The notes beneath the pieces were generated by a model. It made no database searches and was not told the DNA's origin. It worked only from the letters and a program-made list of their open reading frames with translations. From positions 20,026,001-20,090,000 of the forward strand of contig OZ024748.1 of NCBI GenBank assembly GCA_964016885.1: 64,000 nt of DNA, given 5' to 3'. Both the position numbers and the translations under genes were made by a program. This stretch comes from Eledone cirrhosa. Its lineage: Eukaryota. Positions 8,397 through 59,103 of the stretch are shown one piece after another (position 1 is the first letter of the stretch; every line of letters starts with the position of its first letter).

Positions 8397-8710
8397 CGAT
8401 ATTAAATAAATGGAAACTATATTTATAAAAGCATATTTATTTCATTATACATATTTCAGGGATACCAAATTAAAATATGGTATGCCTTCATCAGACAAAA
8501 TACAATATATAAACAGTTTTATAAATAATTTTGACGTACCCTATTTTGACGTATCCCTGAAATATGTATAATGAAATAAATATGGTTTTATAAATATAGA
8601 TTCCATTTATTTAATATCGTATATCTACTCCAAAAACTTGTCGAGTGCTTTATATCAGTTATAAAATATTTACTTGTTGTATCCCAACAATTTTAAATAG
8701 AACTTTTGCA
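8397..8710. mobile_element. Family B fold-back insert in (TA)n
   Basis: Arms 8397-8466 and 8551-8620; right arm extended by tail ending GTTGTATCCCAACAATTTTAAATAGAACTTTTGC; TA tracts on both sides. Confidence 0.8.
8438..8502 (-). ncRNA. Type I hammerhead ribozyme motif (family B)
   Basis: Minus strand: TATTTTGT-CTGATGA-AGG.ATACCA/TGGTAT.CCT-GAAA-TATGT-ATA-ATGAAATA. Confidence 0.8.
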
Positions 8711-8878
8711 TATATATATATATATATATATATATATATGATAGGTGCAACCTCGTTATTGAGTATGGCCATTGCACAATATAACATCATTAATAATTAT
8801 CAATTAATGGTATCGTGCAATACCTGTGTGTGAAGATTTTTTTTAATGTGAGGAAAGACTGATATATATATATATATA

Positions 8879-9056
8879 GTAATAATAATAAATTTGAAGA
8901 CTAAAATCCAAAGAGGGCTCAATAAGGATAAATATATATCAAATATATAAGAACCGTAGAGCAAATATTTAGTTAGTTGGACTTTGTTAGTTTCAGAAGA
9001 TCCTGTTAAGGGTGAAAGCAGCGATTCTTTGCTTAAACTTTAATCTGTTATTTTAA
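8879..9056. mobile_element. Family D insert (inverted tail plus sense CAGAAGA hammerhead-like segment)
   Basis: 8879-8968 is the reverse complement of the tail at ~49597-49684; 8980-9056 matches the sense segment at 49515-49591. Confidence 0.75.
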
Positions 9057-9084
9057 TATATATATATATATATATATATATTGT

Positions 9085-9229
9085 TATACTTGGAAAAGGT
9101 CATATTGTTGTAATAATATTGCCAGAAATAATAACAGAACACACTGTTTGGTTGGTTTTTGCTTCTGTATCTTTTATATCTCCACAGTTAATTCATTTGG
9201 TCCTCAAAACAAATTCATCGCCGTTGGTC
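9085..9229 (-). mobile_element. Family I tail fragment
   Basis: Reverse complement of ~60755-60903; same fragment at 37515-37690. Confidence 0.65.
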
Positions 9230-9412
9230 GATTGGCAGTATCGGTAGAGGGTCGGACGCCATGCTTTGCAGCAAAGAGTTACGGCCCTTTATGGTCTGAG
9301 TTCAAATCCCACCGAGGTTAACTTTGCCTTTCATCCTTACGGGGTCGATAAAATAAGGTACCAGTAATACACTGATATAATTGCTGGCCTTGTGCCAAAA
9401 GTAGAAACAGTT
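9230..9412 (+). mobile_element. SINE family 1
   Basis: Same A/B boxes and core as 4455-4640. Confidence 0.85.
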
Positions 9413-55994: not shown

Positions 55995-56450
55995 ATGATA
56001 AAATGCATTCAATAAACCCTGGAAAGTGGTTAGCATTAAGAAGGATGTAGAAGTTTAGAAACCATGTCACATGAAAGAGCAAGAGGACATGTCAATTGAG
56101 TCAAGGACATGACAATCCCTATAGTGCTGATGCCATGATAAAATGCACCCAGCACACAGTAGAGTGGATGGTGATAGTAAAGACACTTAGTTGTAGAAAC
56201 CATTCTAGAAAATGTTAGAGAGAACTCTTCAGAAATATCAAGGACACAACAGCCACTTTAGTGCAAGTACCATAATATGTGCACCCAGTACACTCTGTAA
56301 AGTGGTTGGTGTTAGCAAGGGATACCAGTTGTAGAAACTTTGCCATAAACAGAGCTGAGAGACCTCTTCAGTTATGTCAAAGACACAGCAACCTCCTTTG
56401 AGCTAGGGTTTTGATAAAATGCACAAAGTACAATCTGTAAAGTGGTTGAT
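55995..56450 (+). repeat. ~140-bp degenerate tandem of a retroposon 3' segment
   Basis: AAATGCACCCAGTACACTCTGTAAAGTGGTTGG...GTTGTAGAAAC recurs about 4 times. Confidence 0.6.
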
Positions 56451-57111
56451 TTCCTTCAATTTAACTTACATTCATGATGACAGCTTTTTCTCAGATTATT
56501 ATGGCTGGCTTTCTGCCAATTCAAGAGATCATCATCACCATCATCATTACCATTATTATTATTATTATTAGCAGTAAAAGGAAACTAGATCAAAATGTAT
56601 TAAAGAATAAAAGACATTCTCTCCACCCTGTTACCTTATACATGAAGGGACCAGGAAAGAGAAGATGGGAGAGAGAGGGAGAGAGAGAGAGAGAAAGAGA
56701 GAGATAGGGAGAGAGAGAGATAGGTGGGCGGTGGGGGGTGTAGATGTATGGTAAATATAAGGAAAAAGTCTGCAATAGCAGCAACAGATGATTCACAATG
56801 GGTGTAGTTCCAACCGAAAATAGGTAAACAAAAATATTAACCATGAAACCCTCTGAACAAAAAAACAATGTGTATATGGTTGGTTTAGATAAGGAATGAG
56901 AGCTTCTGGAAGTAGAGGGAGGAGGTGAGGTGAATGGAAGAGCAGAAGATTAGGTCAACACCCTAGAAATAAAAACAGCAAAGATAGTTGTTGCTAGATT
57001 TAACCCTCTTCTGACCATATTTCTAATGAATCACACTGTATTTCAATTAACTAATTATTTAATTAAGAATTTTTCAAAGAATTTACTAACATTATTAATT
57101 ATGCGGTGGAA

Positions 57112-57310
57112 GGGCGGTGGATTGGCAGTATCGGTAGAGGGTCGGACGCCATGCTTTCCAGCATAGTTACGTCCCTTTACGATCTGAGTTCAAATCCCGC
57201 CGAGGTTCACTTTGCCTTTCATCCTTACAGGGTCGATAAAATAAAGTACCAGTAATGCACAAATAAAGTACCAGTAATGCTGGCCTTGTGCCAAAAGTAG
57301 AAACAATTAT
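57112..57310 (+). mobile_element. SINE family 1
   Basis: Family 1 sequence with a short internal duplication; flanked by ATTATTAATTATGC direct repeats (probable TSD). Confidence 0.88.
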
Positions 57311-58900
57311 TAATTATGCTGTCATTAATTAACAACATCCTGTAATGATTTTGCAGAAAATATCTAAAAAAAGGACGTCTTTGTGAAAATCTGCAGAAAA
57401 TTAAAGATATTAATTTCTTATATAATGTAACCCCAGTGCTGTCTTATACGTTTCAAGAGTATCTTGCTAATGTGCTTTTATGTTCTATAGCATATTAAAT
57501 AGTTAAGAAGGTATTTATAACATAGCTTAACAAAAGGTCCTTATATCAAATTACATAGGAAGGTTTTAATCTGTGTATCTGATTTACAATGGTTACATTG
57601 CATTGTTGCATGTCATAAGAAGTGATTAGAAAGGTTAATGTCAGGCAGGGCATTAAATTGGAAGGTTTTAATCTGTTTCAAGAAGGGCATCCAGCCATAA
57701 CACATTGTGACAAAAAAGACCTCCTGATGTGTATGAAGCCAACCATAGAGTATACAAATATAACTTTAGAATGGAAAAGGGCCTTAAAATGCTTGCTGTT
57801 GCTGATTTTCTTTAAATATAAACATACAGCAGATCTCACTCTCTCTCTCTCTCTCTATATATATATATATATATATATATATATATATATATATATATAT
57901 ATATATATATATATATATATATATATATATATATATATATATATTTATATATATATATATATATACACACACATATATATATTTGCATATGTATATATAT
58001 ATATATATATATATATATATTTCTATACCTACTTTGTATAAGTCATTCTATATGTATATCTAGATGTACATACATACATATATATATATATATATATAAT
58101 ATATATATATAATATATATATAGATAGATAGATAGATTGATAGATATACATATAGAATAACTTATACAAAGTCACCGAGGGGTAGATTGTATCTTTGATG
58201 GTGATGATGGATATATATATATATATACTTGTGGCCCAGTGCCAATATAAGTAAGCCTTATTTAACATACAACAATGATGTAATTGTTGGGTTATTTATT
58301 ATTATAATCTTGTGTTTTACAAAAAACACACAATGAGAATCTGATATAACTTTATTTCTTTTGGCCAATATCTGTGTGTATTGATTCATAACAAAAATGA
58401 CACTCCCAGGAAGAACTACGAAGCAGAACTAGTAGGTTTGTTTTGGCCAATACCTATGTTTAGGGAGATGTTATAACTGTGACACTCCCAAGAAAACTAA
58501 TATAAACATATCTAGACTGTCTGTTTTTACAGTGAACTACAGATATTAGAAAATTACTCAGAATAATAATTGAGATCATAATCTATACAAGTTCTATAAT
58601 GAAGTGATGATTTTTAAGTTCATTTTTAAAACATTTCTTTATCTTAACTAATGCTCCTTTCACTTAATTTAATGCCAACCTGTCTGAAAACCCTCCTGGT
58701 TCTATGATAGCAACCTGCCTATTTTAAAGAACTCATTTTTTTTTTATTAAAACATTCGCATACGATTCATGTAAAAACTTGTTTATATATATATATAGAT
58801 AGCAGCTGTTTTAGGTTATGTAACTGTTATAGAAACACGTGTCAATAAATTCCTTTCAACTAAACTGTATCCATTCAAACCTTTCTATATATATATATAT

Positions 58901-59103
58901 ACGTTATTCCGGGTTGAATCGGAGGTAACCACAGTAAGTAAGGTACTCAATACATTGCAGAGTATAAAAGTTTTAATATAGATGAGATTCTACAGGACTA
59001 GAACTGTTTCATTCTTTAGAAATCATCAGGAATCTCTATAGAGATTCCTGATGATTTCTAAAGAATGAAACAGTTCTAGTCCTGTAGAATCTCATCTATA
59101 TAT
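58901..59103. mobile_element. Family A perfect fold-back
   Basis: Spacerless palindrome centred 59038/59039 with ~63-bp arms; left arm extended by the family A tail. Confidence 0.88.
59041..59093 (+). ncRNA. Type I hammerhead ribozyme motif (family A); mirror copy 58984-59036 on minus
   Basis: GAGATTC-CTGATGA(59048-59054)-T.TTC-TAAA-GAA.T-GAAA(59067-59070)-CAG/CTG-GUA site (59086)-GAATCTC; perfect 7-bp helix I. Confidence 0.85.

What the first reader, a model, noticed from the sequence alone, without database searches (positions are those of the whole stretch)
8438..59093. Compensatory base changes conserve the ribozyme helices within families
Family A helix I is GCTTC/GAAGC (25917) vs GAGATTC/GAATCTC (59041), and its helix II loop varies (TAAA, CTCC) inside TTC/GAA. 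Family B helix II is AGG.ATACCA/TGGTAT.CCT vs AAG.GCACCA/TGG.TGC.CTT, and helix I is TATTTTGT/ATGAAATA vs TATTTTAT/ATAAAATA. Family F helix I is TATTT/AAATA vs CATTT/AAATG. These pairings lie within a single arm, so the fold-back does not explain them. They imply selection on RNA structure in the parent elements.
Basis: seen in the sequence. Interest (0 to 1): 0.75.

Follow-up and report, generated by a model that had tools for sequence, protein, structure and literature searches.

The report
Selected hammerheads in Penelope retroelement ends
The paired base changes are real and sit in predicted self-cutting RNA motifs at the ends of three abundant Penelope-type jumping genes; inherited changes mostly keep the pairing while later private mutations mostly break it, so selection likely acted in the active parents, a pattern already described for this class.

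Summary
Families A, B and F are type I hammerhead motifs in the pseudo-LTR ends of three Hydra-clade Penelope-like elements, with 13,000-27,000 exact motif matches each in G000. In 127 independent copies with the parent's own 5' flank, inherited pair states keep pairing 15:5, while private mutations break it 54:12 (p=5e-6). The catalytic core shows 2 inherited against 14 private changes (p=0.009). An R-scape-like test finds no pair significant genome-wide; three pairs pass when only the proposed helices are tested. Two additions: family F carries a ~100-nt rod in place of stem II, and stumps of A and F end at the first base of helix I (a likely transcription start), not at the cut site, so most copies came from uncut RNA. 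The scan noted Hydra-clade hammerhead ends and the RNA-start idea before, on other DNA. Cleavage is untested.

The parts
59041..59093 (+). Family A type I hammerhead, subfamily AGATTC/GAATCT; C3 at 59048; G59041 is junction-derived
58902..59036 (-). Mirror arm of the same A insertion: hammerhead (C3 59029) plus the tail ending in (TA)n
25824..25966 (+). Family A fold-back stump; GGCTTC/GAAGCT at a junction; core CTGGTGA (A6>G); helix II mismatch
9430..9630 (.). Family A fold-back (C3 9564 on +), loop TCCC, decayed
47016..47192 (+). Family A fold-back (C3 47074), loop CTCC, G12>A
4678..4847 (.). Old family A fold-back (C3 4806), degenerate
40664..40783 (+). Family A stump starting inside loop II
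47719..47753 (-). Family A fragment (C3 47749)
59700..59860 (.). Family A fold-back lacking the CUGAUGA core
8438..8502 (-). Family B hammerhead, AGG-C-ATACCA/TGGTAT-C-CCT type (C3 8494); partial mirror arm at 8551-8623
13017..13082 (-). Family B hammerhead, AAG-C-GCACCA/TGGTTGC-C-CTT type (C3 13074); partial mirror arm at 13144-13226
26342..26406 (+). Family B hammerhead (C3 26350) with native 5' flank
28254..28405 (+). Family F hammerhead with 117-nt stem II domain, GUU cleavage triplet; 5' end joined to (TA)n
32292..32425 (+). Family F hammerhead with 101-nt stem II domain; the C of CATTT lies at the 5' junction
32693..32830 (+). Family F hammerhead (GC-rich subfamily) with 101-nt domain and helix I TCATTATTT/AAATAATGA
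32515..32695 (-). Mirror arm of the F fold-back, lacking the helix I 5' strand and C3

Best explanation
These are the cut-down, often mirrored ends of three Hydra-clade Penelope-like retrotransposons, and the helix changes are likely the record of purifying selection on a predicted dimer-dependent hammerhead ribozyme in the few copies that kept transposing. Shown: linkage to RT plus GIY-YIG ORFs, pair-keeping inherited states, pair-breaking private mutations, a constrained core, palindromic helix III, and 5' ends piling up at helix I in A and F. Inferred: the RNA starts at or near helix I (in A behind CCAAT, CACCC and TATA-like boxes); the enzyme starts at the tail about 130 nt downstream and runs off an uncut RNA to make the stumps; the two hammerheads of a tandem transcript pair through helix III and cleave, which matters for parent fitness (RNA processing or circle formation) but not for making most genomic copies, which then decay neutrally.
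For: Parents: in L301 (A), L261 (B) and L289 (F) the hammerhead precedes an ORF with RWR, DKT, CxCx5C, GIY-YIG-like, CxxC and CxH motifs, matching the Hydra diagnosis. B and F hammerheads also lie about 0.8-1.7 kb downstream of such ORFs. Selection: inherited keep/break 15/5 against private 12/54, p=5e-6; core inherited/private 2/14 against flank+loop 175/209, p=0.009 (n=40 A, 62 B, 25 F). In B, N7 changes 7 times while 11 core columns change 0 times; the A loop changes 2.75 times per column (before de-duplication). Three-state WC-G.U-WC paths occur in B pair 18-36, B helix I, F helix I and the first F helix II pair. F long stem: 98.9% of cells paired, 0/500 shuffles as high, slid registers 22-61%. 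Helix III self-dimers fold at -14.8, -4.2 and -12.0 kcal/mol against -2.4, 0 and 0 as monomers. Breakpoints: A 22 of 33 core-bearing copies end 1-8 nt before C3 and none at 9-120; F 22 of 56 at 3-12 nt. (TA)n joins: 55 at helix I start, 8 at the cut site, 6 at a control site. A TATA-like box lies 29-33 nt upstream in 40 of 46 native A copies.
Against: No pair reaches all-pairs E<0.05 in the R-scape-like test (best: B 0.63, A 3.7); F helix I is not significant even helix-only (0.25). A rests on only 2 inherited double changes. One B subfamily group carries inherited mismatches in distal helix II (5 breaking states in all). The A core test alone is not significant (p=0.27). B shows no pile-up at helix I (0 of 89 within 8 nt), and F has no TATA box. 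The extra-G (cap) signature is weak: A 18 G vs 4 A, but snap-back also gives G; F 3 G vs 1 A in the first 100 of 348. In vitro, a related element inserts without ribozyme activity (PMC11167929). Cleavage was not measured.
Confidence: 0.78

Rival explanations
1. The matching changes are mutational. Template switching or snap-back during reverse transcription copies one helix strand from the other, so double changes arise in one step without selection.
For: Helix I 5' strands are demonstrably rewritten at junctions (L231 and L270; L011-L015). The A change A-T to C-G has no inherited intermediate among 40 copies.
Against: The tests used only copies with the native 5' flank. B and F pass through G.U states that DNA templating would not make (8 pairs with G.U states vs 2 with A.C, p=0.055; more in the F long stem). 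Templating does not explain the invariant core.
Confidence: 0.08
2. The structure is selected, but as a protein-binding, packaging or reverse-transcription signal. Catalysis is incidental or lost.
For: Genomic copies come from uncut RNA. The PAc element inserts equally with dead ribozyme mutants in vitro. Naiads thrive without canonical hammerheads.
Against: The constrained positions are exactly the catalytic core, with N7 free and H17 A or U, and helix III stays palindromic in all three families.
Confidence: 0.1
3. Apparent covariation is shared ancestry: a few master elements, with diagnostic positions that co-segregate and are complementary by chance.
For: Non-helix column pairs score as high as helix pairs in G-test/APC, and all-pairs E values are not significant.
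Against: Among co-varying non-helix column pairs, 21 of 1077 (A) and 54 of 1145 (B) are complementary with a double change, against 2 of 2 and 4 of 5 helix pairs (p=4e-4 and 3e-5, before de-duplication).
Confidence: 0.04

Closest known systems
Hydra clade of C-terminal EN+ Penelope-like elements, incl. Hydra-1_Obim (Craig et al. 2021, PMC8557442; passages, section 11, supplement searches and part 2 read)
   Same: RWK-like and DKT motifs, CxCx5C linker, CxxC/CxH, no CCHH, (TA)n targets, inverted 5'-truncated copies, type I hammerhead with palindromic short helix III. Family A's CUGAUGA-U...U-GAA frame matches Penelope-n_HM in File S2.
   Different: A, B and F hammerheads differ from the listed Hydra-1_oBim motif. 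No Hydra motif in File S2 has a stem II near 100 nt (the longest is about 25). A and F have multi-kb or microsatellite-rich 3' regions.
Minimal hammerheads of metazoan PLEs (Cervera and de la Pena 2014, PMC4209133; parts 1-2 of 4 read)
   Same: [quoted passage not shown]
   Different: That paper did not separate inherited from post-insertion changes or map 5' breakpoints. A has a 4-bp helix III with an 8-nt loop, B has a C.C mismatch in helix II, and F has a ~100-nt stem II.
PAc Poseidon element of Anolis (Frangieh et al. 2024, PMC11167929; parts 1-2 of 4 read)
   Same: Internal RT initiation at the tail, AT-rich targets, unprocessed RNA as the dominant template, no reads ending at the cut site.
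   Different: Different clade, and its ORF starts inside stem II. Here the first Met lies about 175 nt after C3 in A.
Penelope of Drosophila virilis (Schostak et al. 2008, PMC2377424; passages read)
   Same: Promoter in the pLTR; a partial tandem is needed for an active unit.
   Different: That promoter is internal and TATA-less. Family A shows upstream CCAAT, CACCC and TATA-like boxes, with the inferred start at helix I.

Membership tests
Type I hammerhead ribozyme | CUGANGA, GAAA and UH core in order | tested here: met
   (some window copies carry private core mutations)
Type I hammerhead ribozyme | Helices I, II, III closing the core; open helix I | tested here: met
   helix III is stable only as a dimer in B and F
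Type I hammerhead ribozyme | G10.1-C11.1 pair flanking the core | tested here: inconclusive
   A has U.U then U-A; B and F have an unpaired or A-U position then G-C or A-U/G.U; like Hydra motifs in File S2
Type I hammerhead ribozyme | Match to an Rfam hammerhead model | tested here: not met
   0 matches at gathering score; none among the 150 of 325 E-value rows shown
Type I hammerhead ribozyme | Self-cleavage at NUH | not testable with these tools
   needs an in vitro assay
Hydra-clade PLE | Single ORF with RT and C-terminal GIY-YIG | tested here: met
   L301 (758 aa stop to stop), L289 (830 aa), L261 (frameshifted); 45% identity between A and F ORFs; Pfam gave no hit, so motifs were read by eye
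Hydra-clade PLE | RWK-like and DKT motifs, CxCx5C linker, CxxC/CxH, no CCHH | tested here: met
   read; visibly homologous to the Hydra-1_Obim text
Hydra-clade PLE | (TA)n insertion, pLTR, inverted truncated copies, tail | tested here: met
Hydra-clade PLE | Placement in the Hydra clade on an RT tree | not tested
   no tree with reference PLE proteins was built
Non-LTR retrozyme | ORF-less head-to-tail tandem units | tested here: not met
   A, B and F are dispersed stumps or fold-backs of ORF-bearing elements

The most novel reading that the evidence does not exclude
The ribozyme is selected only for the rare step that makes fertile daughters. Dimer cleavage of a two-pLTR transcript yields a unit RNA, probably circular, whose copying restores the upstream promoter, while tens of thousands of dead stumps come from capped, uncut RNA. 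Family F does this with a ~100-nt stem II rod, a hammerhead form that standard descriptors miss.
Probability: 0.3. Interest if true: 0.7.

Novelty: new variant of a known kind. Interest (0 to 1): 0.42.

Why it matters
Why Penelope-like elements keep hammerheads is open: the motif is dispensable for insertion in vitro and absent from Naiads. Here three families give quantitative evidence that core and helices are under selection in active lineages, although most copies derive from uncut RNA. That narrows the function to a step other than ordinary insertion, and intact-looking ORFs with natural compensatory series make the question testable. The ~100-nt stem II of F implies that genome surveys undercount hammerheads (7 of 40 hits in 400 kb had more than 60 nt in stem II). 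The covariation itself was described in 2014.

Tried and rejected
Rfam searches found no hammerhead. I first rejected F as a hammerhead (GATA instead of GAAA, no partner strand; note 1) and withdrew that once GAAA was found about 100 nt downstream. I first read the ORFs as Neptune clade and changed to Hydra. Pfam and PDB sequence searches of the ORFs were empty. Trees from long flanks were noisy because of non-homologous DNA and were replaced with short flanks. Without ancestral states, changes could not be placed on branches or given a direction; tip-based counts were used instead. A 'SINE chimera' idea for F junctions was rejected: they are SINE insertions into helix I with native sequence upstream. 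The cap-derived G is not established. No RNA holder was listed, so no reads were laid. Lunse et al. 2017 is not held and is known only through PMC6765202 passages. R-scape itself was not available. Literature searches found no paper on these octopus-type families or on a ~100-nt stem II in a PLE; most subscription papers and bioRxiv supplements are not searchable.

Full report
Setting. The window is G000:C8:20026001-20090000 of a 3.0-Gb, AT-rich, microsatellite-rich animal genome. An octopus host is inferred from a recalled SINE, from earlier scan notes and from similarity to Hydra-1_Obim; it was not tested directly.

Observation. The quoted helices are in the window within single arms. A relaxed type I descriptor gives 11 hits in the window against 0 in both controls, and 40 hits in 400 kb of random genome against 0. 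Rfam finds none. Exact patterns count 23,414 matches for A, 26,761 for B and 13,569 for F, all with control 0; mirror arms count twice. F becomes a hammerhead only when stem II may span 90-126 nt: CUGAAGA, the long domain, GAAA-CGAUCG-UA or UU, and a 9-bp helix I.

Corrections to the examples. Copies of A that keep the parent's upstream sequence read CCC-AGATTC, so parental helix I has 6 bp and G59041 belongs to the junction. The 25917 strand also abuts a junction. In 2 of 132 A copies the 5' strand is simply the reverse complement of the 3' strand and tail, so fold-back can write helix I. At 32297 the C is at the 5' junction, and sister copies have U.G there. The A helix II stem is invariant, and the quoted B helix I change is two wobbles.

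Sample for the tests. I kept only copies with native 5' flank. A: 50 found, 46 aligned, 40 after merging mirror arms and duplications. B: 126 with core and 19 without, 94 after filters, 67 after removing query-selected loci, 62 independent. F: 75, 27 native, 25 independent. Most come from contig C1. Part of the A sample was chosen by a pattern that needs an intact core, and the F anchor included GAAA and the 3' helix I strand, so only six F core columns were scored.

Selection. States shared by related copies were counted as inherited, and states differing from a copy's nearest neighbours as private. Inherited minor pair states keep or break pairing 2/0 in A, 10/5 in B and 3/0 in F; private changes 4/23, 7/30 and 1/1. 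Pooled p=5e-6. Core columns show 2 inherited and 14 private changes against 175 and 209 in flanks and loops (p=0.009; A alone p=0.27, B p=0.011). Private mutation rates in core and flank are similar in A and B (1.2-1.4% vs 1.8-1.9%), as expected if copies decay after insertion. Double changes: A helix I A-T/C-G (21/14) and A-T/G-C (32/6); B helix II A-T/G.T/G-C (26/6/29), A-T/G-C (37/20, plus 2 A.C) and T-A/C-G (45/16); B helix I A-T/G.T/G-C (29/27/2); F helix I T-A/T.G/C-G (15/7/2). Among co-varying non-helix columns only 21 of 1077 (A) and 54 of 1145 (B) are complementary in this way.

Against this, an R-scape-like G-test with APC and 150 tree simulations gives no pair with all-pairs E<0.05. 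Restricted to helix pairs, the two A pairs (E 0.007) and one B pair (0.001) pass; two B pairs are marginal (0.07, 0.09) and F fails (0.25). Power is low because each pair changed only a few times. One B group inherits mismatches in distal helix II. The F long stem, aligned for 20 of 27 native copies (GC-rich subfamily left out), is 98.9% paired with 5 doubly changed pairs, 0/500 shuffles as high on cells paired, and 22-61% in slid registers. That structure was derived from the same alignment, which favours it.

Parents. B and F hammerheads lie about 0.8-1.7 kb downstream of RT plus endonuclease ORFs. In L301 (A), L261 (B) and L289 (F) the hammerhead also precedes the ORF as a 5' pLTR. The proteins carry RWR, DKT, CxCx5C, GIY-YIG-like, CxxC and CxH motifs and the elements sit in (TA)n, which is the Hydra diagnosis of PMC8557442 section 11. 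A and F proteins are 45% identical over the RT; Pfam was blank.

How the stumps arise. Of 60 tail-anchored A copies, 27 have lost the core. Of the 33 with it, 22 end 1-8 nt before C3, none at 9-120, and 11 run further. In F, 22 of 56 end 3-12 nt before C3 (12 at exactly 7), after removing 5 SINE-interrupted copies. B has 0 of 89 within 8 nt, and its ends are spread further upstream. Direct (TA)n joins in the main A subfamily number 55 at the start of helix I, 8 at the cut site and 6 at a control site with the same TA overlap. Native A copies have a TATA-like box 29-33 nt upstream of helix I in 40 of 46 and CCAAT 82-88 nt upstream in 30 of 46. F has a reverse CCAAT at 73-82 nt in 18 of 27 but no TATA. 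I infer that the A (and perhaps F) RNA starts at helix I and that most copies were made from uncut RNA, in line with PMC11167929. RT stalling at helix I or endonuclease nicking at ATT remain possible. An extra G is enriched in A (18 vs 4 A) but can come from snap-back, and is absent in F.

Mechanism. Helix III is self-complementary in all three families and folds far better as a dimer, as described for PLE hammerheads. The most likely reading is a dimer-dependent ribozyme needed by active tandem elements, selected in those lineages and neutral in the stumps. Which step needs it is not shown. Producing promoter-bearing tandem daughters through a cleaved or circular RNA, as proposed in PMC4209133, fits the paradox best but is untested.

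Novelty. PMC4209133 already reports PLE hammerhead families full of compensatory changes, and File S2 of PMC8557442 shows covarying stems across Hydra families. The scan reached similar readings on other DNA of this and related genomes. What I did not find in print is the inherited-versus-private test and a PLE hammerhead with a ~100-nt stem II. Verdict: real, mostly known, moderately useful; interest 0.42.

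Noticed in passing
window 37-396: Near-perfect fold-back with two hammerheads (C3 at 144 on -, 289 on +), helix III A-TGCGCA-T; another family seen in random loci.
   Followed up: no
window 59613(-), 37784(-), 60671(+), 29167(+), 15092(-): Further hammerhead-like cores of other families; 37784 and 60671 show helix II covariation GTCAC/GTGGC vs GTTGC/GCAAT.
   Followed up: no
window 8994, 23701, 49529, 50577 (+): Four near-identical repeats with hammerhead-like layout (AGTTT/AAACT, GAAA) but CAGAAGA in place of CTGANGA; possibly a family that spread with a dead or variant core.
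   Followed up: no
L203, L217, L219, L220, L310: Five apparently independent insertions of an abundant SINE into the same ATTATT site in F helix I.
   Followed up: partly
family A copies, e.g. window 25922: A6>G (CTGGTGA) recurs in 6 of 132 copies across subfamilies; A-to-I editing before reverse transcription is one possible cause.
   Followed up: no
L068:456-3366: Seven tandem ~482-bp units each with a hammerhead; retrozyme-like array.
   Followed up: no
L040:6464, L060:3181, L064:2597(-): Other hammerhead families with about 50-55-nt stem II domains.
   Followed up: no
window 22328-22731, 46592-46707, 22237-22326, 51144-51214: Perfect palindromes without a hammerhead core, the largest 404 bp.
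   Followed up: no
window 10729-11163, 15879-16721(-), 41610-42266, 29754-31747: ORF fragments resembling a Helitron helicase, an RLE non-LTR element and an RTE-type RT (names recalled, untested), and a long tandem repeat.
   Followed up: no
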